Under the pieces are notes generated by a model, which saw only the letters and a list, made by a program, of their open reading frames with translations, was not told the origin of the DNA and ran no database searches. A DNA stretch of 64,000 nucleotides from sequence record OW969666.1; one strand, given 5' to 3'. Numbering within the stretch: the first letter of the stretch is position 1; every line of letters begins with the position of its first letter. Below, one piece after another: positions 159 to 14,659 of this stretch. This DNA comes from a plasmid. The position numbers and the translations under genes were made by a program.

Positions 159-345
159 ATAATCCGGGCGGGGCATAGGCGCCGCCTGTTCGCGCGCGAA
201 AACCCTGTCATCCCTTCGGGCTGACGGACGGTAAGGCCAGCGCCTGCGGCGCTGCCCCCTCCCGCCCGGATGTAAGCCCGGAGAGATGCAGATGAAAGGC
301 ATTGTGAGGGCAAATTGTCACGGATACGGTCCTGCGTGGCGTGGC

Positions 346-435
346 GTGGCGTGGCGTGGCGTGGCGTGGCGTGGCGTGGCGTGGCGTGGCGTGGCGTGGC
401 GTGGCGTGGCGTGGCGTGGCGTGGCGTGGCGTGGC
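346..435. repeat. (GTGGC)18 pentanucleotide microsatellite
   Basis: Perfect tandem GTGGC units read directly from the sequence; six-frame ORFs across it give AWRGV/HATPR repeats (translation artefact). Confidence 0.95.
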
Positions 436-486
436 GGCTCTGAAACCCGATCAGCAAATCCTCTGAAAACACCTGAATCCCACTTC

Positions 487-1020
487 TGGCCCCCTTCGGC
501 TCCCGGCCAGCGCTGCTGTCCGGTCGTCGAGCCCCACTCCGCCAGGGCGGCCGCTGCGCACCCGCCGGGCTCCGCCGAACCCCTCCGGGTTTCGGGCTGA
601 CGCTAGGGTCTGATGGCGAAGGTCAAGGGCTGCGGCTTCTCCGGCCGTGCCGTCCGGAACGCCTTCACCGCGCCGGCTGATGCCGTCGCTTTAATGGCGC
701 CACGCCGTTCCGACGTGTCGGGTGTGTGCATCCTGTTCCCCCGGTGAAGCCATCCCCCGTGCGTCCTCACGCGGAGGGCTTGTCGTAGCACCGTCGGGTC
801 GTCATCCAAGGGGTGAAATGCACTCCGCCAAAACTTTTTGCGTGCCGCAAAAACTTTAGTCTCCGCCCCTTTCCTTCCTCCCTTCGCCGTTGCTCCTTTG
901 CCCTTTGCCGCGAGAGAACTCACCAGGGAGATGGACAACCATCACCACAGGAGAAAACCAGGATGCACACACGAAACGTCAACGTCAAAACCGCCGCTCC
1001 CGAATCTTCCAGGAAGATGG
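487..1020 (+). repeat. Leading-region repeat module copy 1 (GC-rich structured segment, operator palindrome, RBS, shared leader codons)
   Basis: Near-identical to 4516-5125 and 7543-8150; upstream hairpin motif gcgcc-tgcgg-cgctgcc at ~250-275 also shared. Confidence 0.8.
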
Positions 1021-1235
1021 GGGAAGAACAAAACCCTGTTTCTGTCGCACGGGAGTGGGTGGCTCAGGCCACTTCGCTGAAAGCGGGTGTCACCGTCACC
1101 CTGTCCGATGTGTCCCGATACGGAGACGTTCAGGTGGAGATCCGCACCAACGGAACGCTTAACTGGCGCGACTGGTCGTTTGAACCGGATTTTCTTTTTG
1201 AACTGAAACGCAACCTGCAATACGTGCAGCTTTAA
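963..1235 (+). CDS. Small leading-region protein (91 aa from the shared leader ATG; 73 aa if the internal ATG ~1015 after AGGAAG is used)
   Basis: In-frame continuation of the conserved leader MHTRNVNVKTAAPESS; RBS GGAGA upstream of 963. Confidence 0.5.
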   Translation: MHTRNVNVKTAAPESSRKMGEEQNPVSVAREWVAQATSLKAGVTVTLSDVSRYGDVQVEIRTNGTLNWRDWSFEPDFLFELKRNLQYVQL

Positions 1236-1278
1236 CCGGAGGCCGGATGTCCGGCCTTAACCCAGAGAAGGAGGAAAC

Positions 1279-1644
1279 ATGCAGAACCTTAACACCCGTC
1301 CGGCGACCCGTAAGGTCGGGCAGAGCACTGAAATCGTGAAGCTGCTGCGCATTCAGGCCAGCGACACCCACGTGGTCGAGTTTGACAACGTGGACACCCG
1401 ATTTAACGACTGCAACAACTGGCAAGTGATGGCAGGAGGCAAACGTGTCCTGTTCAGCAACCGCATGTATGAGCGTTTTTCAGATGTGAAATCGGGGATC
1501 GTGGCAACGATCAACGTGTGTGAAAACAGCGGCAGCGTAACGGATAACGCGATGCTGGAAGGGGCAAAAGTCATGATGCAGGTTCTTGATGGCTATCCGT
1601 CCTTTGCAGCACTGGCAGCACACCCGAAACGCATTACCGGTTAA
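1279..1644 (+). CDS. Hypothetical leading-region protein, 121 aa
   Basis: Strong RBS GAAGGAGGA 7 nt upstream; position between a repeat module and the ParB-like gene, as in F-type leading regions. Confidence 0.65.
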   Translation: MQNLNTRPATRKVGQSTEIVKLLRIQASDTHVVEFDNVDTRFNDCNNWQVMAGGKRVLFSNRMYERFSDVKSGIVATINVCENSGSVTDNAMLEGAKVMMQVLDGYPSFAALAAHPKRITG

Positions 1645-1711
1645 CCGAGTGCCGTGACCGGAGGGCAATCCGGCCACGGCTAACCACAACTATCACTGAG
1701 AGGTAAAAATC

Positions 1712-3724
1712 ATGGTCGCCACCAATACTACGGCAAAAAAACCAGCCAGGACCACCCGTCAGACAAAATCTGCGGAAAAAATCGCGCAGTCTACCGAGCA
1801 GAAGCTCGTCCAGCTGCTCGCTGATACGCCCGTGCAAATCTTCCCGTACTCCCGCCTGTCACACACTGACTTAAACACGCGCATCATTCCGCATACCGAT
1901 CAGGAAGTGGAAGAGATGGCAGACAGCATTCAGGCAATGGGCATCCTCCAGAACCTGATCGGTGCAGAACTGCCGGACGGTACGATCGGCATTGTCGGCG
2001 GGGAAGGTCGTCGCAGAGGCACAGGCATTCTGGTGATGCGCGGTGTGCTCGATGCAGACACGCCGTTTGTTCCGGTGAAAGTCCTGCCCGTTGAGATGGC
2101 TGTGGCGGCCTCGATGATCGAGAACGGTCGACGTAAAAACATGCATCCCGCCGAGCAGATTATCGGTTTTCGTACCCTTCAGCAGGAAGGTAAAACGGCC
2201 TCTCAGATCGGCGCACTGATGGGCTATCACCCGCGCCACGTTCAGCGCTGCCTGAAGCTGGCGAATCTTGCCCCCTCCCTGCTGGATGCGCTGGCGCGGG
2301 ATGAAATCTCCCTTGAACAGTGTGAAGTCCTGACACTTGCTGATACCCATGAGCGTCAGGAGCAGGTCTGGAAAGAGGCTGTTGAACAGTGGCGCGATCC
2401 TGCCGTACAGACTCTGCGCAAAATGGTGACCGACGACAAGATGGCCATCAGTCACCCGATGTTTGAGTATGTGGGTGAGGAAGCCTATACCGCCGCTGGC
2501 GGTACGCTGACCGCCGACCTGTTCAGCGACAAGGACAGCACCTTTGCCGATGCGGCGCTGGTTAAATCTCTGCTGGCTGGCAAGCTCACCGTGCTCGCCG
2601 CTCGCGTTAAGCAGGAGCAGGGCTGGGGCTGGGCTGAGTTCCGTATGACGGAACTGCGTGCCAGCGGTGAGGACGGTGAACAGTACCGTTTTGCGATGCC
2701 GAAAGCTGTCCTGACGGAAGAAGAACAGAAGCGCGTCAGTGAGCTGGAAGAACAAATGGAAGCCACTGAAAGCTACGATGACGAATACGAGCTTCAGCAG
2801 GATATCGATGACATTTACTGCGAGGCGCAGTACCGCGAAGCCACGCCGGAATTTCGCGCCGCGCACGGAATCTGGGTGTCATGGGACGGTAGCAATTTTC
2901 AGGTTCAGCCTGGTATCCGCAAGCTGACCGACGAAGACCGGGTAGCTGAAGAACAGGCGCGTCAGGAACGTGAAAGCAATGTGATCAGACACACCACGCC
3001 TGAAATTCCCGCCGACGCTTATCCGGCAACGCTGGTAAAAGCTATGTCAGCCGAACGGACTCTCGCCGTTCAGGCCGAACTGGCGGGTCGTCCCGACGTA
3101 TCGGTGGCGCTCCTGACGTGGACACTGTGCCTCAGTATGTTTGATCGCAGCTACGGTAAACGCAGCGAACCGCTGAAAGCCTCCGTGTCCTCGAATCAGT
3201 ATCACCTTGCATCACTGGCTCCATCCGGTGAAGAAGGGAAGGCGCTGACGGCGCTCAAAGCGCAGAAAGAGGCGCTTCAGGCAACGCTGCCCGAAAACTG
3301 GCATCTCGATTTCACCTGGCTGCTTTCATGGTCAGCGGAGCAGGTGAACACCCTGCTGGGATTCTGTGCAGCGCACGGTATCAACGGTATTCAGGAACGT
3401 ATGTACAACCATACGCAGAAAAGCGAACTGGACGGGCTGGAAGCGGCGCTGGACTTTGACCTGCGCAAATGGTGGCAGCCGGATGCTGAGAGCTACTTCG
3501 GCAAGCTCACCATCCCCCAGATTGGCAAAGCCTACGAAGAAGCCGGACTCAGTGCCCGCGCTGGAGAGATTGTGAAGCTCAAGCGCCGCGATGCGGCGAA
3601 GGCCGCCGAGCAGGATCTGAATGCTCAGGGCTGGCTGCCTGACTGGATGGTGCGCACATCACCAGCCGCTGAGGCTGAAGAAGCCACCGAAACCGACGCT
3701 CACACCACTGACCACGCTGCTTAA
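1712..3724 (+). CDS. ParB-like nuclease domain protein, 670 aa (leading-region type)
   Basis: N-terminal ParB/Srx-like region with HTH (…YHPRHVQRCLKLANLAP…); size and position upstream of psiB typical of F-like leading regions. Confidence 0.8.
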   Translation: MVATNTTAKKPARTTRQTKSAEKIAQSTEQKLVQLLADTPVQIFPYSRLSHTDLNTRIIPHTDQEVEEMADSIQAMGILQNLIGAELPDGTIGIVGGEGRRRGTGILVMRGVLDADTPFVPVKVLPVEMAVAASMIENGRRKNMHPAEQIIGFRTLQQEGKTASQIGALMGYHPRHVQRCLKLANLAPSLLDALARDEISLEQCEVLTLADTHERQEQVWKEAVEQWRDPAVQTLRKMVTDDKMAISHPMFEYVGEEAYTAAGGTLTADLFSDKDSTFADAALVKSLLAGKLTVLAARVKQEQGWGWAEFRMTELRASGEDGEQYRFAMPKAVLTEEEQKRVSELEEQMEATESYDDEYELQQDIDDIYCEAQYREATPEFRAAHGIWVSWDGSNFQVQPGIRKLTDEDRVAEEQARQERESNVIRHTTPEIPADAYPATLVKAMSAERTLAVQAELAGRPDVSVALLTWTLCLSMFDRSYGKRSEPLKASVSSNQYHLASLAPSGEEGKALTALKAQKEALQATLPENWHLDFTWLLSWSAEQVNTLLGFCAAHGINGIQERMYNHTQKSELDGLEAALDFDLRKWWQPDAESYFGKLTIPQIGKAYEEAGLSARAGEIVKLKRRDAAKAAEQDLNAQGWLPDWMVRTSPAAEAEEATETDAHTTDHAA

Positions 3725-3761
3725 TACCGGAGGCCGCCGCCTTCGGGCGGCGGGAACAGAC

Positions 3762-4187
3762 ATGACTATGCAATATGACCTGAACCAAATCAACAAACTG
3801 ACCGCCTCCGACCTGGAGTTTATCCGTCAGCAGGGCGAGGACGCGCGCCGCGCTCTCAGCGATACCGTGACCGGCCTCCTGTCCACACCAGAAGGATGGC
3901 GCGTCTGCGCCGAATACCGCAGCGAGTTCGGCGGCTTCTTCCCCGTCCAGTGCCGCTTCAGCGCGGACGGCAGTGATGACTGGCATCTGTGCGTGTGCAG
4001 CTCCGGCGAAGTCTCACCGTACTGGCTTCTGGTGCTGCTCTCCTCCGGCGGGGAAGTGGTGTGTACCCTTTACCAGAGCGACACGCTCCAGCCTGACCGG
4101 ATACCTGACACGGAAATCGCTTTGCGAAATCCGGTACAGGGACACGGACAGGGAGGTGGCAGCTTTTATGGCTTACGAATCCGCTAA
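3762..4187 (+). CDS. psiB: PsiB-like SOS-inhibition protein with a non-homologous C-terminus
   Basis: [16 protein letters not shown]…[17 protein letters not shown] matches the F PsiB core ([16 protein letters not shown]…); homology is lost over the last ~35 codons. Confidence 0.75.
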
Positions 4188-4191
4188 GTAG
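4096..4191 (+). pseudogene. hok: hok-family toxin 3' fragment (no start codon, no TM helix)
   Basis: Frame-1 translation …[28 protein letters not shown] equals the Hok C-terminal half; overlaps the psiB 3' end in another frame. Confidence 0.7.
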
Positions 4192-4194
4192 CTA

Positions 4195-4225
4195 ACCCCG
4201 GCGGGGGGAAACCCCCGCCATTCAG
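4195..4225 (+). terminator. GC hairpin (hok mRNA 3' fold-back/terminator-like)
   Basis: ggcggggg-aaa-cccccgcc stem-loop immediately after the hok remnant stop. Confidence 0.45.
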
Positions 4226-4515
4226 GGGCTGAGATTGTGTGGACATGCCTGAAGCGCCTTTATGAAGGGGTTGCCGGTTCGCCGGTAGCCCCTTTTTCCT
4301 TCCCGACGCGACCGCACGCCTGAACCTCCGGGAAGGGCTGTTCCCCTGCGGGGAACGGGGGAAGGGGGACGCGCCTTCGGCGCTGCCCCTCTGCTCCCTC
4401 TGCCTGATCCTCCCCCCTGCCTGTCCTGCCTGATTTTGTTGAATTCGAAACTCTGTGAGCTACCTGCTCATACCGGGCTTCAGCCTGGTGTGCCCGATGT
4501 TCTTTATCCCGGGCG

Positions 4516-5125
4516 TCATATCCGGCGTCCTGCCGGTTAACTTTCGCATCTGCAGCTCCGTGGCTATAACCCGAAAACAGGGCAGGGCGATGGCCCCCTT
4601 CGGCTCCCGGCCCGCGTGGCGGTCCGGTCGTCGAGCCCCACTCCGCCAGGTCGGCTGCTGACGCACCCGCCGGGCTCCGCCGAACCCGCAAGCGGTTTCG
4701 GGCTGACGCTAGGGTCTGATGGCTGAGGTCAACCCCCTGGCTTGCACCGGCCGGAGGCCGGGCCGCCCTGAGCGCGCCGGCGGAGCCGTCGCTTTAAGGC
4801 CGCCACGCCGTTCCGACGTGTCGGGTGCGTGCATCCTGTTCACCCGGTGAGGCCATCCCCCGTGCGTCCTCACGCGGAGGGCTGCTTGTAGCACCGTCGG
4901 GTCGTCATCCAAGGGGTGAAATGCACTCCGCCAAAACTTTTTGCGTGCCGCAAAAACTTTTGTCTCCGCCCCTTTCCTTCCGCCCTTCGCCGTTGCTCCT
5001 TTTGCCCTTTGCCGCGAGAGAACTCACCAGGGAGATGGACAACCATCACCACAGGAGAAAACCAGGATGCACACACAAAACGTCAACGTCAAAACCGCCG
5101 CTCCCGAATCTTCCAGGAAGATAGG
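4516..5125 (+). repeat. Leading-region repeat module copy 2 (related sequence extends upstream to ~4330)
   Basis: About 600 bp nearly identical to copy 3; the same operator palindrome and leader. Confidence 0.85.
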
Positions 5126-5381
5126 GGGAAAAACCGTGTCGTACACGATCCTCGTCGCTGAGCAGAAAAAAAACTCAGCGGAGGAACCTGATGTTCTGGA
5201 GTTCAGCAGCCTGGCTGAGCTGAAGAAACTGCGCAGACGCTGCCCCGAAACGATGCGCTGCACCTATTTCTACGCCCTCAGCAGCGGCGTCGATAAACAG
5301 TTCCGCCATATCCATGTGGCTGAAGCTGACCACTTCAAACAGTTTGTGCGCCTGATCGCGCGTGCAGGTATCGACATTTAA
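5066..5381 (+). CDS. Small leading-region protein (105 aa from the shared leader ATG; 81 aa from GTG ~5137 after AGGGGGA)
   Basis: Conserved leader fused in frame to an unrelated body. Confidence 0.5.
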
Positions 5382-5441
5382 ACACGGTTCACCCCGTGCG
5401 GCAGCCGCCGCACGGAACCTCATAAGACAGGAGCCAGAAAT

Positions 5442-5903
5442 ATGAACGTTAACACCCCGGCCGCTGCACCAATGGCCTTTTTCGTTCCGTCCCATAACGC
5501 CGTTTATGACCGCGCAACCCAGCTGGAAGGGCAGTGGGTGACTCAGCGTGAAGCGATAACGCTGGAATCCCTGCGCCGTCTCTATCCGGATGCGGAGCTG
5601 ATCCCCGCGACTCTGGTTCAGGAAAAGCAGAATGACGGCTATCGCCGTCCCTGGGTGGAAATCACCGGGGCCCGGTACATCGACCAGCTGGAAACGCTGC
5701 CGCCAGTGGACTGGTGCAGAGGGTATGGCGGGGAGTCGTTCAAATCGATGGAGTTTACGGGCGGGGATGTGACCGCAATTTTCGTCCGGTACGGCGCGCG
5801 TTTCTTTGAGTGCCATGACCTGCACACCCGCCATCACCGGGAGCTGATTGGCGACGTGATCGCCCGTTTCTGTCTCGATGCGCCGCTGAATTCCGCGCAT
5901 TAA
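5442..5903 (+). CDS. Hypothetical protein, 153 aa
   Basis: RBS CAGGAG 8 nt upstream; no family recognised. Confidence 0.6.
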   Translation: MNVNTPAAAPMAFFVPSHNAVYDRATQLEGQWVTQREAITLESLRRLYPDAELIPATLVQEKQNDGYRRPWVEITGARYIDQLETLPPVDWCRGYGGESFKSMEFTGGDVTAIFVRYGARFFECHDLHTRHHRELIGDVIARFCLDAPLNSAH

Positions 5904-5989
5904 AAAAGCAGGGTTGCCCCTGCTTTCTCAACGCCGGGTAGCCGCAGCAACGGTGAACCGGCAATCACAACCAAAGTAAGGAGATTGAT

Positions 5990-6191
5990 CGTGAAATTTG
6001 ACCCGCAAACTGTCGCACAGGCGAAGGCATTTGTAAATGCCCTCCGCGCCGGAAAACGCGCTCGCGTACCCGCGCTGCGCTTCTCACAGTGGCAGCCGTT
6101 CCTGTCCGTGGTAAATGCCGAAACGGGCTACGCCACCGATGCTGACTGTGGTCTGGCTGTCAGCGTCTACCCGGCGCTTGGACTGGCTTAA
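5990..6191 (+). CDS. Small hypothetical protein (~67 aa, GTG start)
   Basis: RBS AAGGAG upstream of GTG. Confidence 0.4.
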
Positions 6192-6231
6192 CAGGAGACG
6201 GCCGCCTGCGGGCGGCCGGTAAGGAGAAACC

Positions 6232-7023
6232 ATGTCACAACTGAGTTTTGAATCCCTGTTCCTGGCAGACCAGGCTGATCTGCAGCCGCGGGCTTCCGCA
6301 CCGGCCCGGATGCTGTCGCCAGCTGAGGCGCGTAAACAGTTCGCCAGTGTGTTCCGGCAAACGGCGAAAAATATGCGCCGTTCCGAAGTGTTCAGTGACT
6401 TCATCACCCTGGCAGCCAGCGAGCTGGATCTGGCCCGTATTCGTTCGCCGGAGAACATCGAAAACAGCCGTCGCATCTGCGCACGGTATCAGCCGGACGA
6501 TTTAGACGCCATGAAGCAGCTGTTCTGCCTGTTGGTTGAGGGGCTGGCGGGTGACATTCATGATTTCCTCGGCGCTCTGTATATGGAGCAGGAGCTGGGC
6601 GCGGACGAAATGGGGCAGTATTTCTCTCCGTCCTGCATCTCCCGTCTGATGGCCGGACTACTCATGCCCGGCGCTCAGGAGACGATAAAGCGTGAGGGGT
6701 GGATGACGCTCGATGAGCCAGCCTGCGGCAGCGCCGGTATGGTCATTGCCTTTGCATACTGGATGGCTGAAGCGGGATATAACCCGTCTGAACAGCTATA
6801 TGCCACCTGCACCGACATCGATCCAATGGTGGCTGATATGGCCTTTATCCAGCTGGCTCTGCTGGGTATTCCCGCGAAAGTCGTGACCGGTAATACGCTG
6901 ACCCTGAAAGCGAACCGCGTGCGTTACACCCCCGTGTATTACTTCAATGACTGGCAGGGCCGTCTGGCATTTCGCAGTCGTCTGGATGCAATGAAGAACT
7001 TTCTGGCCACCGTGGCCGCCTGA
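6232..7023 (+). CDS. N6-adenine methyltransferase-like protein, 263 aa, catalytic motif IV not detectable
   Basis: GQYFSP… and LDEPACGSAGMV (SAM-binding motif I-like) present; no NPPY/NPPF/DPPY; too short for a full methyltransferase plus target-recognition domain. Confidence 0.6.
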   Translation: MSQLSFESLFLADQADLQPRASAPARMLSPAEARKQFASVFRQTAKNMRRSEVFSDFITLAASELDLARIRSPENIENSRRICARYQPDDLDAMKQLFCLLVEGLAGDIHDFLGALYMEQELGADEMGQYFSPSCISRLMAGLLMPGAQETIKREGWMTLDEPACGSAGMVIAFAYWMAEAGYNPSEQLYATCTDIDPMVADMAFIQLALLGIPAKVVTGNTLTLKANRVRYTPVYYFNDWQGRLAFRSRLDAMKNFLATVAA

Positions 7024-7064
7024 CTGACAGAGCGGCAGGGCAGACCTGCCGCAGGGAGATAAAA

Positions 7065-7400
7065 ATGACAAGCAACACACTGAACGCTGTTCCGGCGACC
7101 GTGCTGGAGACCATGGCAGAATGCCTCAACGGCCAGCCTGAACCGCTAAAAATCCGCAACAACGACGATCACGCTGCACTGGCTGCAGATGTGCTCTGGC
7201 AGTTTGCCCGAAAAACCGGGCTGAACAGGGAAAGCGAGAGCGTGCAAACCGTCATCACTGATTTTCTGGCCAATCTTCTGCACCTGTGCAAACAGTGCGA
7301 TCCTGACGGGGCAGGTATCGACGGATTTAATGCCCTGCTGAATATGGCCATGATGCATTATGAGCAGGAAAACGGAGGTGACAGCGAAGAACCAGTTTGA
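7065..7400 (+). CDS. Hypothetical protein, 111 aa
   Basis: RBS GGGAGA upstream. Confidence 0.55.
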   Translation: MTSNTLNAVPATVLETMAECLNGQPEPLKIRNNDDHAALAADVLWQFARKTGLNRESESVQTVITDFLANLLHLCKQCDPDGAGIDGFNALLNMAMMHYEQENGGDSEEPV

Positions 7401-7542
7401 TCGGGAGTCTGTGCCCTGGTGGATGCCATCAGGGCAACCGCAAAAAAACGCTTCCCCTTCGGGGAAACAGGGAGGGCGAAAGCGCCTCCGGCGCTCCTGC
7501 CATTCCCCGCTACCGTACTTCTCTCCTTACCTGCCTTCAGAA

Positions 7543-8150
7543 CCGGCGTCCTGCTGGTCAACTTTCTCAGCTGCAGCTTTGTTATGGCCATAACCCGAAA
7601 GCAGGGCAGGGCGATGGCCCCCTTCGGCTCCCGGCCCGCGTGGCGGTCCGGTCGTCGAGCCCCACTCCGCCAGGTCGGCTTCTGACGCACCCGCCGGGCT
7701 CCGCCGAACCCGCAAGCGGTTTCGGGCTGACGCTAGGGTCTGATGGCTGAGGTCAACCCCCTGGCTTGCACCGGCCGGAGGCCGGGCCGCCCTGAGCGCG
7801 CCGGCGGAGCCGTCGCTTTAAGGCCGCCACGCCGTTCCGCCGTGTCGGGTGCGTGCATCCTGTTCACCCGGTGAGGCCATCCCCCGTGCGTCCTCACGCG
7901 GAGGGCTGGTCGTAGCACCGTCGGGTCGTCATCCGAAGGGTGAAATGCACTCAGACAAAAGTTTTTGCGTGCCGCAAAAACTTTTGTCTGCGCCCTTCTC
8001 CTGCCACCCCGCCGTCGCTCCTTTTGCCCTTTGCCGCGAGAGAACTCACCAGGGAGATGGACAACCATCACCACAGGAGAAAACCAAAATGCACACACGA
8101 AACGTCAACGTCAAAACCGCCGCTCAAGAATCTACCGGAAGATGTGATTC
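7543..8150 (+). repeat. Leading-region repeat module copy 3 (related sequence extends upstream to ~7440)
   Basis: Near-identical to copy 2; perfect 14-3-14 palindrome CAAAAGTTTTTGCG-TGC-CGCAAAAACTTTTG at ~7953-7983. Confidence 0.85.
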
Positions 8151-8382
8151 AAACCTCACCACGTCCCAGTTCACGGATCTGTTCTGCTGGGTCCTGGCAG
8201 CATCGGAAGGGGAGCCACAACCGACAATTTTTACGCCGCCAGAGAATGCCACTGAGCTGACGTTAATTAATGACGAATGCCCGGATTATATCTCTGTCTG
8301 GGTTGTAGATGGTCGCCCGGTGGCAGCTGCAATGCCGCTGGATAATTTTCACCGCGTTATTCCTTCATCACTTACTAAATAA
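8089..8382 (+). CDS. Small leading-region protein, 97 aa, starting with the shared leader
   Basis: Only in-frame start is the conserved leader ATG; body unrelated to the other two. Confidence 0.5.
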   Translation: MHTRNVNVKTAAQESTGRCDSNLTTSQFTDLFCWVLAASEGEPQPTIFTPPENATELTLINDECPDYISVWVVDGRPVAAAMPLDNFHRVIPSSLTK

Positions 8383-8398
8383 TCAGGAGTAAATAAAA

Positions 8399-9220
8399 AT
8401 GGTCAGTTTCGCAAGCCGCTATCGTATGCCTGTCTCGATCCGTAAAGACCGTCCGCTGACAAATGAGGAATTACAGCTCATCGTTCCGAGCGCGTTCTCA
8501 TCGGATAAACACGATTCACGCTCTGAACGTTATACATATATCCCGACCATAAATATTCTTGACCGTTTACGTGATGAAGGGTTTCAGCCGTATTATGCAA
8601 CGCAGTCACGCACACGTGACCAGGATAAACGAGAATTTACAAAACATATGCTTCGCCTGCGTCGTCATGACCAGATTAACGGGAAAGAAGTACCGGAAAT
8701 TATTCTGCTGAATAGCCATGATGGTTCAAGCAGCTATAAAATGATCCCCGGTATGTTCCGTCAGGTTTGCAGTAATGGTCTGGTTGCATGGAAGGATTTT
8801 GGTGAAATCCGCGTACCCCACAAAGGGGATATTGTCGGGCAGGTTATTGAAGGCGCTTACACGGTGCTGAAAACATTTGACGCGGTTGATGAAAATATTG
8901 ACCTCATGAAAAGCATTCAGCTTACTTTGCCTGAGCAGCGACTTTTTGGTGCGACCGCTCTGGAACTTAAGTACGATGGAAAACCAGCGCCGATTACGCC
9001 GGAGCAAATTATTAACCCACGCCGGGTACTCGACAGAGGCCAGGATTTATGGACCACGTTTAACGTAGTACAGGAAAATGTGATCCGTGGGGGGATTCGT
9101 GGCAGAACGCAAAAAGGGAAGGTGGCCAGAACGCGGGAAGTCACCGGAATTGATGGTGACATCAAATTAAATCAGGTGCTCTGGAAAATGGCGGAGGAGT
9201 TTGCAAAACTGAAGGCCTGA
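8399..9220 (+). CDS. DUF932-like phage/plasmid protein, 273 aa
   Basis: Size and sequence character of the YfjQ/DUF932 family common beside anti-restriction genes; RBS CAGGAG. Confidence 0.65.
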   Translation: MVSFASRYRMPVSIRKDRPLTNEELQLIVPSAFSSDKHDSRSERYTYIPTINILDRLRDEGFQPYYATQSRTRDQDKREFTKHMLRLRRHDQINGKEVPEIILLNSHDGSSSYKMIPGMFRQVCSNGLVAWKDFGEIRVPHKGDIVGQVIEGAYTVLKTFDAVDENIDLMKSIQLTLPEQRLFGATALELKYDGKPAPITPEQIINPRRVLDRGQDLWTTFNVVQENVIRGGIRGRTQKGKVARTREVTGIDGDIKLNQVLWKMAEEFAKLKA

Positions 9221-9225
9221 AAATT

Positions 9226-9250
9226 AAGCCGCTCAACAGAGCGGCTTTTT
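9226..9250. terminator. Bidirectional rho-independent terminator between convergent genes
   Basis: aagccgctc-aacag-agcggctt followed by a T run. Confidence 0.7.
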
Positions 9251-9788
9251 ACTGCCCGCTATGTAACGAGGTCGTTTCCGCAATTTGCATTGCATGCTCC
9301 TTTCCCGCAGCTGGCGCCAGACGTTCAGAAAGTAGCTTTTTTCTGGCCAGCAATACACGATATATATTTTTGATATCCTGAGCATACGCCTTGCGCTGCG
9401 CAATGAGCTTTTTGCTCGGCCCCGTATTATACATCCCTACGCTGTCCCAGTTTTTTCCGTATGACCTGAAGTTGTGCGCCAGTACCCATGCACCCGTATA
9501 AACGCAGATGCATGGATCATTCAACAGTCGCTCACGGGTAATATTGAAATTTTTAAGTTTACCGTAATGGGAACTGTTCACCTGCATCCCGCAGACATCT
9601 TCTGTTCCATTCCTGTTTGATCCATTTATCGCACCCGGCTTAAGTCTGCTCTCTTTAATTGAAATTGACATAAGCAGCAGCGGATCAATTTGATAATCTT
9701 TCCCGGCCTGATCAAAGCACATCTGGGGAGCTGCGCCAGCAGACATGGAAAGGGTCAGCAATGCCGCAGGTAGTATCGATATTTTCAT
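9249..9788 (-). CDS. Lytic transglycosylase with signal peptide (F orf169/gene X-like)
   Basis: N-terminal signal peptide; Slt-domain features; position beside oriT as in F-like plasmids. Confidence 0.75.
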   Translation of the reverse strand: MKISILPAALLTLSMSAGAAPQMCFDQAGKDYQIDPLLLMSISIKESRLKPGAINGSNRNGTEDVCGMQVNSSHYGKLKNFNITRERLLNDPCICVYTGAWVLAHNFRSYGKNWDSVGMYNTGPSKKLIAQRKAYAQDIKNIYRVLLARKKLLSERLAPAAGKEHAMQIAETTSLHSGQ

Positions 9789-9949: not shown

Positions 9950-10360
9950 ATTAACACGCCGCTCTTTATTAACCCCTTAAAACATCACACCCCACGCAAG
10001 ACTTTGTCTTGCAGATTTTTCTTTTAATTTCAGGTGCATATCTGTGATAAATTTGCGCGTTATTGAAGTGTGACCGTCTAATGTCGCACACACCGACACT
10101 ACACTATCGTATAATCCTGATACCTGTTAGTGTCGGTATGTCACACATGTATCGTACAATTGTAGATATGCTTTAATTACATTGAATTATATATCGCACA
10201 GTGTCACACTGTCGCACATCCTGGTGCTGGATTGTACTACTGTACAAAACAGAGATTCGCAGCAGTATCAACCCATTACACCTTTGCACAGCATTTTGAT
10301 AAACCACCAACAGGCCATATGTAGTGTCGGTTCCGACACTAACTTAAAACAGGTAAGAAA
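9950..10360 (+). other. oriT region: putative nic site and TraM-binding palindromes
   Basis: Minus strand reads GTCTTGCGTGGGGTGT|GATG (~9983-10003), resembling the F nic region TTTGCGTGGGGTGT|GGTG; downstream palindromes TAGTGTCGG-N3-CCGACACTA (~10321-10341) and CCGACACTAC…TAGTGTCGG. Confidence 0.6.
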
Positions 10361-14170: not shown

Positions 14171-14659
14171 ATGTCGTATAAAACCAGGCTGGATGTTATC
14201 GAAGAAGACCTGAACAAATGGCGTGCCGGGAAAAAGATTTACAAGTACCGGCGGTTTTTGATGCCCACAGCGCTCGCACTTCTGCCTTGCAGTATTTTTC
14301 TCTACGGTGTTTTTCATAATAAGGCTGTATTTGTCGTTCTGGGCTTCATGCTCGCCTTCCTCCTGTTCCGGCTCTTTACAGGAAAAGAAGATACCCCGGA
14401 CACCTGGGAGGATCGAATCAATCAGGCATTGCTGTCCTACAGCCCAATGAATCAGGACGCGTTCGAAAAACTGTGCCGCACCGTAAATGAGAAGAGGGCA
14501 ATAGAGCCTGATGATGTTGCTGTATGGCTCAAGGACGAAAAAGAAGCACGTGCGCTTTTCAGGCGTCAGCGAGATGAACGGCAACGCTACAGTTTCACTA
14601 AATGGCTGGATAAACGGGAGTCTGACCAGAAAGCTGAATGTAATGAGGAGGACAAATGA
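14171..14659 (+). CDS. Hypothetical membrane protein, 162 aa, in the traP position
   Basis: Strong RBS TAAGGAGG; hydrophobic segment. Confidence 0.5.
   Translation: MSYKTRLDVIEEDLNKWRAGKKIYKYRRFLMPTALALLPCSIFLYGVFHNKAVFVVLGFMLAFLLFRLFTGKEDTPDTWEDRINQALLSYSPMNQDAFEKLCRTVNEKRAIEPDDVAVWLKDEKEARALFRRQRDERQRYSFTKWLDKRESDQKAECNEEDK

What the first reader, a model, noticed from the sequence alone, without database searches (positions are those of the whole stretch)
487..8150. Triplicated leading-region module donating promoter region, operator, RBS and a shared 17-codon leader to three unrelated small ORFs
Three copies at ~487-1020, ~4516-5125 and ~7543-8150 share a GC-rich, hairpin-dense segment and a palindromic operator. 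They also share an RBS and the coding start ATGCACACAC(G/A)AAACGTCAACGTCAAAACCGCCGCTC… (MHTRNVNVKTAAPESS…). After the leader each fuses in frame to a different protein body. The arrangement resembles the repeated single-strand promoter (Frpo/ssi-like) elements of F-type leading regions. Those drive early, zygotic expression of anti-defence and SOS-inhibition genes. The shared translated leader and modular swapping of downstream cargo are striking. I am not aware of a description of this.
Basis: partly seen in the sequence, partly recalled or inferred. Interest (0 to 1): 0.75.

Follow-up and report, generated by a model that had tools for sequence, protein, structure and literature searches.

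The report
Single-strand promoter hairpins with built-in start codon
Three copies of a known type of plasmid "single-strand DNA promoter" hairpin sit in front of three early-gene operons. In this variant the hairpin also carries the ribosome site, the start codon and about 19 codons, so unrelated first genes all begin with the same short peptide.

Summary
Three 85-99 % identical modules lie at 487-1028, 4509-5132 and 7530-8154, and nowhere else in the 64 kb window. They sit in the leading region of an F-like Enterobacter plasmid.

Each module is a relative of the F plasmid Frpo/ssiD class-1 single-strand promoter. It is the same element that Samuel et al. 2024 listed as low-certainty "Frpo*". 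On the transferred (window minus) strand it folds into a roughly 270-nt hairpin. That fold has 85 pairs, 24 of them with compensatory changes across 21 distinct copies from about 12 genera.

The Shine-Dalgarno site, the invariant ATG and codons 2-6 form the base of the hairpin.

Across 155 complete copies, 154 leader-started reading frames run 46-144 aa. They fall into about 14 unrelated protein families, and several families have no other possible start codon.

The leader is conserved equally at all three codon positions (0.89/0.91/0.86, against 0.63/0.70/0.43 in the bodies). Its sequence is untranslated 5' UTR in F, and the peptide is predicted to be disordered. It is therefore mainly a nucleic-acid element that happens to be translated.

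Verdict: a new architectural variant of a known kind. Promoter activity and translation of the leader are inferred, not shown.

The parts
487..1028 (+). Module copy 1. It comprises a GC-rich multi-hairpin segment (487-705), the main hairpin (706-978) and the rest of the leader.
4509..5132 (+). Module copy 2
7530..8154 (+). Module copy 3
706..978 (-). Main imperfect hairpin of copy 1 on the transferred strand. The 3' arm is 706-841, the loop 842-846 and the 5' (template) arm 847-978.
   Evidence: DNA fold z=-6.7 on the minus strand against -2.5 on the plus strand. RNAalifold gives 85 pairs, 24 with compensatory changes. 97 % of cells are paired, with 0/500 shuffles reaching this.
4809..5082 (-). 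Main hairpin of copy 2 (loop 4945-4949)
7833..8104 (-). Main hairpin of copy 3 (loop 7969-7973)
831..857 (.). Equivalents lie at 4934-4960 and 7958-7984.
   Evidence: Homologous to the apex of F ssiD and ColIb ssi. Pairs are invariant across copies.
803..831 (-). Putative promoter hexamers on the non-template arm of copy 1. TTGGCG (831-826) is followed by a 17-nt spacer and TGGATG (808-803). Equivalents are 4929-4934/4906-4911 and 7953-7958 (TTGTCT)/7930-7935. The inferred transcription start is near 885-886 on the plus strand.
   Evidence: Assigned by alignment to F ssiD (TTGCGG-17-TGGACT). The match to the -10 consensus is weak. This is an inference, not a mapped site.
949..953 (+). Shine-Dalgarno AGGAG of copy 1, 9 nt before the ATG. 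Equivalents are 5053-5057 and 8075-8079.
963..1019 (+). Leader of copy 1, 19 codons (MHTRNVNVKTAAPESSRKM). The ATG and codons 2-6 pair with 706-731 in the hairpin.
5067..5123 (+). Leader of copy 2 (MHTQNVNVKTAAPESSRKI)
8089..8142 (+). Leader of copy 3 (MHTRNVNVKTAAQESTGR)
963..1235 (+). Leader fused to cargo A (90 aa), a distant DUF905/YfjA-like protein. It is the first gene of operon 1: orf121 1279-1644, ParB-like 1712-3724, truncated PsiB 3762-4187.
   Evidence: PGAP starts this CDS at the leader ATG in pECL_A.
5067..5381 (+). Leader fused to cargo B (104 aa), a homologue of F YgeA. It is the first gene of operon 2: orf153 5442-5903, orf 5985-6191, N6-methylase-like 6232-7023, orf111 7065-7400.
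8089..8382 (+). Leader fused to cargo C (97 aa, unknown fold). It is the first gene of operon 3, followed by DUF932 at 8399-9220. There is no alternative in-frame start before codon 78.
9979..9998 (-). F-type oriT nic-region motif TGCGTGGGGTGT|GATGTTTT. It fixes the transferred strand as the window minus strand.
   Evidence: 2 mismatches to the F motif, which I quote from memory; 0 expected by chance. Synteny with F.

Best explanation
Each copy is a class-1 (Frpo/ssi-type) single-strand DNA promoter cassette with a translation start built into it.

After conjugative entry, the transferred strand (window minus strand) folds into a roughly 270-nt imperfect hairpin. The tip and the 3' arm present promoter-like elements in duplex form. 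Host RNA polymerase starts inside the stem, near 885, and copies the 5' arm outward into the downstream operon.

The Shine-Dalgarno site, the ATG and the first codons are part of that 5' arm, at the base of the hairpin. Every such transcript therefore carries the same short, unstructured, CA-rich initiation region. The first ORF of each operon is translated from the cassette's own ATG and so acquires the same 18-19-residue N-terminal tail.

The leader is conserved because its DNA is the hairpin base plus a downstream conserved box. The peptide is largely a tolerated, disordered by-product. It probably derives from the N-terminus of the YgeA family. Duplication and recombination of the cassette, with a right-hand boundary inside the leader, have placed it in front of about 14 unrelated cargo families.

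Once the complementary strand is made, the hairpin and the promoter disappear. Any read-through mRNA contains both arms and would fold so as to bury the RBS and ATG.

Shown here: the repeat, the homology, the strand-specific covarying fold, the in-frame fusions and the nucleotide-level constraint. Inferred: promoter activity, the transcription start, actual translation of the leader, and the read-through gating.
For: Homology:
- F ssiD matches the copy-1 transferred strand at two places (E=7e-9 and 9e-8). Samuel's Frpo*5 is 80 % identical over 402 nt (E=7e-92).

Context:
- The leading genes and tra genes lie on the plus strand, the lytic transglycosylase on the minus strand, and an F-like nic motif on the minus strand at 9979-9998. 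This is the same layout as F.

Fold:
- The minus strand folds at -143.5 kcal/mol (z -6.7); the plus strand at -116.4 (z -2.5).
- The consensus hairpin has 85 pairs, 97 % paired, with 24 double-change pairs against 15.4±1.8 in shuffles (0/500) and 6-10 in slid controls.
- G:T wobbles favour the transferred strand, 182:14 on the structure-based count and 141:53 on the unbiased count.
- Start-codon neighbours covary with the left arm: ATGCAC/ATGAAC/ATGCGC, and position -2 G/A/C pairs with C/T/G.
- In 111 of 119 unique modules, the -4..+10 start window is mirrored with 2 or fewer mismatches 190-260 nt upstream. Controls give 4-7 mismatches.

Translation:
- The ATG is invariant in all 21 distinct aligned copies and is also present in three divergent plasmid copies.
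- A Shine-Dalgarno site lies 8-10 nt upstream.
- 154 of 155 complete leader frames run 46-144 aa, in about 14 cargo families.
- The cargo shows codon periodicity in the leader's frame.
- Families C, D and G have no alternative start in the first 60 codons.
- 90 of 115 database proteins with the leader begin at the leader Met.

Nucleotide-level constraint:
- Leader identity by codon position is 0.89/0.91/0.86, against 0.63/0.70/0.43 in the cargo.
- The junction motif is read in two different frames.
- The same box is untranslated UTR, and part of the hairpin base, in F.
- AlphaFold2 gives pLDDT 43-49 for residues 1-20 and about 90 for the body.

Gating:
- Read-through RNA 695-1040 folds at -131 kcal/mol (z -4.7) with the RBS and ATG paired. 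RNA 886-1040 has z +0.7 with the RBS and ATG open.
Against: - No experiment was possible: no mapped transcription start and no evidence of protein.
- The -10-like hexamer TGGATG matches the consensus at only 2-3 of 6 positions, and copy 3 has TTGTCT as its -35. Samuel et al. rated this subfamily low-certainty for the same reason.
- Erwinia and Pantoea members keep the leader and the mirrored base but lack the canonical A/T-rich tip. The promoter part is therefore not uniform.
- Flat conservation across codon positions could partly reflect gene conversion between copies rather than function.
- The wobble asymmetry favours selection on the DNA strand. This argues that the RNA-level gating is at best secondary.
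- The sequences are phylogenetically related, so the shuffle statistics overstate independence.
Confidence: 0.72

Rival explanations
1. The leader peptide is itself the selected feature. It would be a common N-terminal tag, for example a degradation signal giving short-lived early proteins, or a recognition signal for transfer or localisation, that must be attached to each first gene product.
For: The ATG is invariant, and residues M1, T3, V6, N7, T10 and A11 are invariant in all leaders. The fusion is kept in frame in 154 of 155 cases and with about 14 cargo families. F YgeA and Klebsiella YgeA carry a similar native N-terminus.
Against: Third codon positions are as conserved as first and second (0.86 against 0.43 in cargo). 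The last 4-5 leader residues are read in different frames in different variants, even within one cargo family. The homologous sequence is untranslated in F in front of ssb and ygeA. The leader is predicted to be disordered. No Pfam family covers it.
Confidence: 0.13
2. The leader ATG is not used. The conserved stretch is only hairpin DNA or 5' UTR, as in F, and each cargo protein starts at its own downstream codon.
For: In F the same box is non-coding and the genes have their own RBS and ATG. Copy 2 has a plausible GGGGGA-N6-GTG at codon 24, and copy 1 has an in-frame ATG at codon 19.
Against: Cargo families C, D and G have no ATG, GTG or TTG in frame within 60 codons. The frame is open from the leader ATG in 154 of 155 copies, and the cargo's codon periodicity is in that frame. 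With about 14 independent junctions, chance in-frame joining is about (1/3)^13. A good SD precedes the leader ATG, and the ATG is invariant even where its pairing partner changes (L014).
Confidence: 0.06
3. The module is an ordinary double-strand promoter region whose palindrome is an operator for a plasmid repressor. It is triplicated to co-regulate three operons.
For: A perfect 8-11 bp A/T-rich palindrome is shared by all copies. Co-regulated repeated operators exist in other plasmids (general knowledge).
Against: No sigma-70-type promoter is found on either strand of 200-1300. The palindrome is the tip of a 270-nt covarying hairpin, and wobble pairs favour one strand. This is not expected for a duplex operator. 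It is homologous to the F Frpo tip. Some family members lack the palindrome but keep the rest.
Confidence: 0.05
4. The hairpin's main role is not transcription. It would act as a barrier or priming site for complementary-strand synthesis, like the ssp2 roadblock or the ssi priming signals, or as a terminator/insulator between operons. On this view the leader fusion is an accident of where duplications ended.
For: F Frpo transcripts prime DNA synthesis, and a class-2 hairpin stalls conversion at its stem end (10.64898/2026.01.09.698686). The tip is scored as terminator-like on the plus strand. The GC-rich segment 487-705 holds several covarying small hairpins of unknown role. The left-arm base box is more conserved than pairing requires.
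Against: These roles are not exclusive of promoter function. In F the same class of element does both. Every copy lies directly upstream of a plus-strand operon that has no other detectable promoter. The invariant SD and ATG point to expression.
Confidence: 0.1

Closest known systems
F plasmid Frpo1/Frpo2 (ssiD; also called ssp1a/ssp1b; class-1 ssDNA promoters; Masai & Arai 1997; Couturier et al. 2023, PMC9849209)
   Same: Both lie in the leading region on the transferred strand, are repeated within one plasmid, and form a long imperfect hairpin (F: z -7.3). The core GCAAAAAGTTTTG.CGG..GTGCATTTCACCCCTGGA is homologous, and so is the box AACGTCAAAACCGC.GCTCCCGAA..AAGATG.TGGGGG at the hairpin base. 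The downstream gene sets overlap: YgeA, DUF905/YfjA, ParB-like YfjB, PsiB and DUF932.
   Different: In F the hairpin base has no ATG (CAGGTCCCCGCAAAACGTC, against CAGGATGCACACACGAAACGTC here). The repeat ends in the 5' UTR, and ygeA and ssb use their own RBS and ATG. Here the RBS and ATG lie inside the stem and the repeat runs 18-19 codons into the first gene. Outside the two boxes the sequences are not alignable by BLAST.
ColIb-P9 / pESBL ssi1-3 (three ~328-nt Frpo-like repeats upstream of the ssb, psiB and ardA operons; Bates et al. 1999; Wen et al. 2025, PMC12672017)
   Same: A hairpin promoter triplicated in one leading region, each copy heading an operon of early genes. Similarity is weak, at 73 % over 74 nt (E=4e-5).
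   Different: In the ColIb sequences the repeats end at the SD (…AAGGAGC…) and there is no shared coding leader. The hairpin arms differ in sequence.
'Frpo* 5-7' low-certainty candidates of Samuel et al. 2024 (Salmonella enterica AAEPNF010000010.1; PMC11541004, Suppl. file 4)
   Same: This is the same element: 80 % identity over 402 nt (E=7e-92) and 74 % over 358 nt. The published sequences stop exactly at the base before the leader ATG.
   Different: That paper lists them as upstream regions with 'only distant Frpo similarity' and divergent -35/-10 elements. It does not report covariation, the start codon in the stem, the shared leader or the cargo diversity.
Cassette systems that supply expression signals to promoter-less or start-less genes, for example the integron Pc/attI region with its short ORF that aids translation of cassettes (from memory; an analogy only)
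   Same: One conserved upstream unit provides the transcription and translation start for interchangeable downstream genes.
   Different: There is no site-specific recombinase or attC-like site here. The copies are static duplicates spread by homologous recombination. The unit works, presumably, as folded single-stranded DNA, and it leaves a peptide tag on the product.

Membership tests
Class-1 ssDNA promoter (Frpo/ssi) | Located in the leading region, oriented so that the transferred strand is the template for the downstream genes | tested here: met
   An F-like nic motif lies on the minus strand at 9979-9998. The gene order SLT(-)/DUF932/…/PsiB/ParB on the plus strand, with tra genes on the plus strand from 10.2 kb, mirrors F.
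Class-1 ssDNA promoter (Frpo/ssi) | Sequence homology to the characterised F ssiD/Frpo or ColIb ssi elements | tested here: met
   blastn against F ssiD gives 34 nt at 91 % (E=7e-9) and 27 nt at 93 % (E=9e-8). ColIb Frpo1 gives 74 nt at 73 % (E=4e-5). The homology is limited to the core and one box.
Class-1 ssDNA promoter (Frpo/ssi) | Long, stable, imperfect stem-loop formed by the transferred strand | tested here: met
   z -6.7 on the minus strand against -2.5 on the plus strand. 85 pairs, 24 with compensatory changes, 0/500 shuffles. Wobble pairs favour the transferred strand.
Class-1 ssDNA promoter (Frpo/ssi) | -35 and -10 hexamers about 17 nt apart, reconstituted in the stem, with an A/T-rich tip | tested here: inconclusive
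   TTGGCG-17 nt-TGGATG lies at the positions that align with F's TTGCGG-17-TGGACT, and the A/T-rich tip is present. However the -10 matches only 2-3 of 6 consensus positions, and copy 3 has TTGTCT. The strict consensus scan finds nothing.
Class-1 ssDNA promoter (Frpo/ssi) | RNA polymerase initiates on the single-stranded form only, stimulated by SSB and silent as duplex | not testable with these tools
   Needs in vitro transcription on ssDNA, or 5' RACE on early transconjugants.
Class-1 ssDNA promoter (Frpo/ssi) | Downstream genes show zygotic (early, transient) induction after transfer | not testable with these tools
   Homologues of PsiB, YfjB and YgeA are induced from Frpo in F (PMC9849209). 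Nothing has been measured for this plasmid.
   No promoter-like site was found in 200-1300 on either strand. The palindrome is the tip of the covarying hairpin. Protein binding cannot be tested here.
YgeA protein family (source of the leader) | N-terminus MSTRN(I/V)..(K/N)TA followed by SYT(I/L)L(V/I)AE…FSSL.ELKK…FRH(I/V)..AEADHFKQF | tested here: met
   The copy-2 ORF aligns with F YgeA along its whole length. Klebsiella YgeA (L026) has the full 21-residue leader-like N-terminus behind a classical F-type Frpo with its own RBS. Copies 1 and 3 share only the leader with this family.

The most novel reading that the evidence does not exclude
The hairpin may be a dual switch. Its tip would make transcription depend on the single-stranded state. 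Its base, which is the exact mirror of the RBS, ATG and first codons, would make translation depend on the transcript having started inside the hairpin. Read-through mRNAs from the established double-stranded plasmid would then bury the start site in a roughly 130-bp RNA duplex.

Together with a recombination-prone boundary inside the leader, this would make the module a portable 'early-expression socket'. It could capture ORFs that have neither a promoter nor a start codon, and about 14 cargo families have been seen so far. That would be an expression-site-like system for plasmid establishment genes.
Probability: 0.3. Interest if true: 0.72.

Novelty: new variant of a known kind. Interest (0 to 1): 0.55.

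Why it matters
Single-strand promoters drive the first minutes of plasmid gene expression in a new host. That includes anti-restriction and SOS-inhibition functions, which decide whether resistance plasmids establish.

This subfamily occurs in at least 1,540 PLSDB plasmids, among them 772 from Klebsiella and 344 from Enterobacter. Until now it has been only a low-certainty candidate. The covariation evidence here supports it as a real, strand-specific structured element.

The evidence also reveals an unreported architecture, with the translation start and a shared leader built into the hairpin stem. If confirmed, this has four consequences:
- It explains why many small 'hypothetical proteins' of leading regions share an N-terminus.
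- It shows that gene callers need the leader ATG to find these genes.
- It provides a natural promoter-plus-initiation-region cassette for early expression.
- It raises a testable mechanism for keeping these genes translationally silent once the plasmid is double-stranded.

Tried and rejected
- **Rfam**: no family covers the modules. The only hits are sub-threshold and unrelated (symR-like at 1648-1717, AS-pc01-like at 5903-5992).
- **F plasmid by accession** AP001918: not in the collections. I used CP099589 instead.
- **Profile search with nine full-length leader::cargo proteins**: gave 566 hits, but the 120 listed belong to the query's own families, so it added no new cargo families. The metagenome DNA scan did that instead.
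- **Double-strand promoter scan**: nothing found.
- **Foldseek of the cargo C model against PDB**: no match with E below 0.1, so function remains unknown. Pfam gave only a sub-threshold DUF905 hit for cargo A and nothing for B or C.
- **Small palindrome at the leader end** (ATCTTCC.A.GGAAGAT): folds in many variants but not in all, and not in copy 3. I do not claim it as a conserved structure.
- **Segment 487-705**: the alignment splits into two sequence types. It yields only short local stem-loops, with no single consensus fold.
- **Mobile-element or REP-like repeat**: rejected because of the fixed position and orientation in front of operons, the homology to Frpo, and the covariation.
- **Minus-strand mirror ORF** (603-938, MHTPDTSERRG…): rejected as a gene. 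It is the reflection of the leader in the other hairpin arm.


Full report
**1. What is there**

The window's first 10 kb is the leading region of an F-like (IncFII/FIB, MOBF, MPF_F) Enterobacter plasmid. Copy 1 is 100 % identical to pECL_A of E. cloacae ATCC 13047. The whole region is about 94 % identical to several Enterobacter plasmids.

Genes from 963 to 9220 are on the plus strand. They run toward a lytic transglycosylase (9249-9788, minus strand), followed by TraM-like, pilin, TraL, TraE and TraK genes on the plus strand. This is the mirror image of F. A sequence two mismatches from the F nic-region motif lies on the minus strand at 9979-9998 (I quote the F motif from memory). The transferred strand is therefore the window minus strand, and it is the template for all these genes.

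**2. The observation**

Three direct copies are present at 487-1028, 4509/4591-5132 and 7530/7615-8154. There are no others in the 64 kb window.

Identity between copies is mosaic. Copies 2 and 3 are 99 % identical on the left, and copies 1 and 2 are 97 % identical on the right. This indicates gene conversion among copies.

Each copy ends with AGGAG, a 9-nt spacer, an ATG and an 18-19-codon shared leader. Each leader is in frame with a different ORF of 90, 104 or 97 aa.

**3. Identity of the element**

The supplementary table of Samuel et al. 2024 lists the known Frpo/ssi sequences and their own candidates. Copy 1, read on the transferred strand, is 80 % identical over 402 nt to their 'Frpo* 5' from Salmonella (E=7e-92). 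It shares two blocks with the experimentally characterised F ssiD/Frpo. One is the promoter core (34 nt, 91 %, E=7e-9). The other is a 27-nt box (93 %, E=9e-8) (alignment).

Current literature groups Frpo1/2 and ColIb ssi1-3 as class-1 ssDNA promoters. Repeats of two or three copies per leading region are the norm (PMC9849209, PMC12672017, 10.64898/2026.01.09.698686). The repeat as such is therefore a known kind of element. This subfamily had been flagged, but only as low-certainty.

**4. Structure**

The minus strand of 480-1030 folds much better than its shuffles (-143.5 kcal/mol, z -6.7). The plus strand is weaker (-116.4 kcal/mol, z -2.5).

To avoid bias toward the leader, I scanned one genome per species with a pattern taken from the hairpin core only. 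This returned 25 further copies from Mixta, Atlantibacter, Kosakonia, Leclercia, Citrobacter, Franconibacter, Salmonella arizonae, Erwinia, Cedecea and others.

Twenty-one distinct copies align to a single long hairpin, at 706-978 in copy 1. It has 85 pairs, 97 % of cells paired, and 24 pairs with changes on both sides. Column shuffles give 15.4±1.8 such pairs (0/500 reach the observed value), and slid registers give 6-10.

Non-Watson-Crick cells are overwhelmingly G:T on the transferred strand rather than A:C. The ratio is 182:14 on the predicted pairs, and 141:53 in an arm-against-arm alignment that treats all mismatches alike. The fold is therefore selected on the transferred DNA strand.

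By alignment with F, the non-template arm carries TTGGCG, a 17-nt spacer and TGGATG (831-803, minus strand), which places the start near 885. The -10 match is poor, and I treat this assignment as inference. No ordinary double-strand promoter is detectable.

**5. The start codon is inside the stem**

The base of the hairpin is formed by the SD region, the ATG and codons 2-6 (955-978). These pair with 706-738.

The pairing covaries:
- ATGCAC, ATGAAC and ATGCGC are each mirrored in the left arm.
- The base two positions before the ATG is G, A or C in different lineages, with C, T or G opposite it.

In 119 distinct modules, 111 carry a reverse-complement copy of the 14-nt window around the ATG, with at most two mismatches, 190-260 nt upstream. 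Control regions give 4-7 mismatches. The figure includes 29 of 33 modules whose tip lacks the canonical core.

Erwinia billingiae and Pantoea members have a different, GC-rich tip but keep this base.

**6. The leader is translated, as far as sequence can tell**

- The ATG is invariant in all 21 distinct aligned copies and is also present in the three divergent plasmid copies read. In the one aligned copy where its pairing partner has changed (L014), the ATG is still kept.
- An SD sits 8-10 nt upstream.
- In the core-anchored (unbiased) set, 25 of 25 copies with enough sequence open a 69-134-aa frame from the leader ATG.
- After adding a metagenome scan, 154 of 155 complete frames are 46-144 aa. 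They give 131 distinct proteins in about 14 families that are unrelated beyond the leader.
- Orthologous cargo pairs show the classic coding signature in the leader's frame, with identity 0.63/0.70/0.43 at codon positions 1/2/3.
- Families C, D and G have no ATG, GTG or TTG in frame within the first 60 codons.
- PGAP and other callers start these genes at the leader Met (90 of 115).

**7. The leader is constrained as nucleic acid, not as peptide**

- Over the same orthologous pairs, leader identity is 0.89/0.91/0.86 at positions 1/2/3. This is flat, with third positions twice as conserved as in the cargo.
- The last few leader codons contain a conserved nucleotide motif, (A/G)AAGATG(G/T)G. It is read in different frames in different variants (…SSRK[MI]GG…, …SSERWG…, …STGRCD…), even within one cargo family.
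- In F the homologous box (AACGTCAAAACCGCGGCTCCCGAAACTCAAAAGATGATGGGGG) is present in both Frpo copies and forms the hairpin base. F has no ATG there, however, and ygeA and ssb follow with their own RBS and ATG.
- AlphaFold2 models the copy-3 protein with a confident body (pLDDT about 90) and a disordered leader (pLDDT 43-49 for residues 1-20).

**8. Origin of the leader**

The copy-2 cargo is the homologue of F YgeA, whose own N-terminus is MSTRNIHVNTAS. In a Klebsiella plasmid, a YgeA homologue behind a classical F-type Frpo, with its own RBS, begins MSTRNINLKTAAQESSRKLGG. That is the complete leader.

The simplest history is as follows. The promoter hairpin and the 5' end of a ygeA-like gene became one repeat unit. 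When that unit was duplicated or recombined, its right-hand edge inside the gene created in-frame fusions with whatever lay downstream.

Leader variants and cargo families are found in different combinations. For example, the 'GRCD' junction occurs with cargo A in Kosakonia and with cargo C here. Both junction types also occur within family C. Exchange has therefore continued.

**9. Mechanism proposed**

The mechanism is the one given under Best explanation. One further inference concerns read-through transcripts. An RNA spanning both arms (695-1040) is predicted to fold at -131 kcal/mol (z -4.7) with the RBS and ATG paired. An RNA beginning at the inferred start (886-1040) is no more structured than its shuffles (z +0.7) and leaves the RBS and ATG open.

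This would restrict translation of the first gene to hairpin-initiated transcripts. The wobble asymmetry says that selection acts primarily on the DNA strand. I therefore rate this gating as a possibility (about 0.3), not a conclusion.

**10. Comparison and novelty**

The element works like F Frpo and ColIb ssi, and passes the family features that sequence can test: position, orientation, homology and a transferred-strand hairpin. The hexamer criterion is inconclusive, and activity is untestable here.

It differs in having the translation initiation region and a shared leader inside the repeat and inside the stem. The papers I could search on Frpo/ssDNA promoters and on ygeA do not mention this.

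I therefore rate it a new variant of a known kind. It is of moderate interest: not a new principle of early plasmid expression, but a widespread and previously unremarked architecture. It occurs in at least 1,540 PLSDB plasmids at 2,074 places, and it allows clear experiments.

**11. Limits**

- Everything about activity is inferred.
- The sequences are related by descent and by gene conversion, so shuffle-based statistics overstate independence.
- The metagenome set was selected by the leader itself, so it can be used only for cargo diversity and mirror-pairing counts.
- The roles of segment 487-705, of the near-invariant left-arm box, and of the junction motif remain unexplained (notebook).

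Noticed in passing
window 334-436: A perfect pentanucleotide array (GCGTG) of 20.6 copies lies about 50 nt upstream of module copy 1. Spurious ORFs on both strands run through it. Its role is unknown.
   Followed up: no
window 3762-4187: psiB matches Pfam PsiB only up to residue 114. Its last 28 residues match DUF5431 instead. No psiA follows, although the closest relatives do carry psiA. This looks like a deletion that fused psiB to a downstream remnant just before copy 2.
   Followed up: partly
window 239-253, 4371-4383, 7481-7495: A short GC hairpin, (A)GCGCC-N3-GGCGC(T), recurs about 120-250 nt upstream of each module. The repeated unit may therefore extend further upstream in degenerate form, or these may be ends of the preceding operons.
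   Followed up: no
window 603-938 (minus strand): An ORF on the minus strand contains MHTPDTSERRG…, starting at a mirrored copy of the leader's GGATGCACACAC. It is most likely an artefact of hairpin symmetry rather than a gene.
   Followed up: partly
window 695-737 (and equivalents in copies 2 and 3): The left-arm base box ACACCCGACACG(G/T)CGGAACG(G/A)CGTGGCG is almost invariant in all copies from all genera. It is more conserved than pairing with the leader would require.
   Followed up: no
L025 (F plasmid CP099589), about 8972-9020 and 14361-14410: Inside the F repeat, ATGATG opens a 13-codon frame. At Frpo1 it ends with a TGA overlapping the ygeA ATG (ATGA). At Frpo2 it is in frame with the ssb ATG. 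This could be a vestige of the built-in start, or coincidence.
   Followed up: no
L028 (Erwinia billingiae pEB170) 1480-1880; L030 (Pantoea agglomerans) 930-1345: These members keep the leader and its mirrored partner. Their hairpin tip, however, is GC-rich and lacks both the A/T palindrome and the GGGTGAAATGCAC core. The base and the tip of the hairpin therefore seem to evolve as separate modules.
   Followed up: partly
proteins P0094, P0099, P0100, P0106, P0120 (cargo family D): A 127-131-aa leader-bearing leading-region protein is named 'ammonia monooxygenase' in several NCBI records. This is almost certainly a propagated misannotation.
   Followed up: no
L024 (Streptomyces morookaense contig), L017 (Dysgonomonas MAG): Contigs assigned to non-enterobacterial genomes carry modules and cargo nearly identical to those of enterobacterial plasmids. 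Contamination or mis-binning is the likely cause.
   Followed up: no
window 1648-1717 (minus strand): A sub-threshold Rfam match to the SymR antitoxin RNA (31 bits against a gathering score of 61, E=0.01) lies between orf121 and the ParB-like gene. It is probably chance.
   Followed up: no
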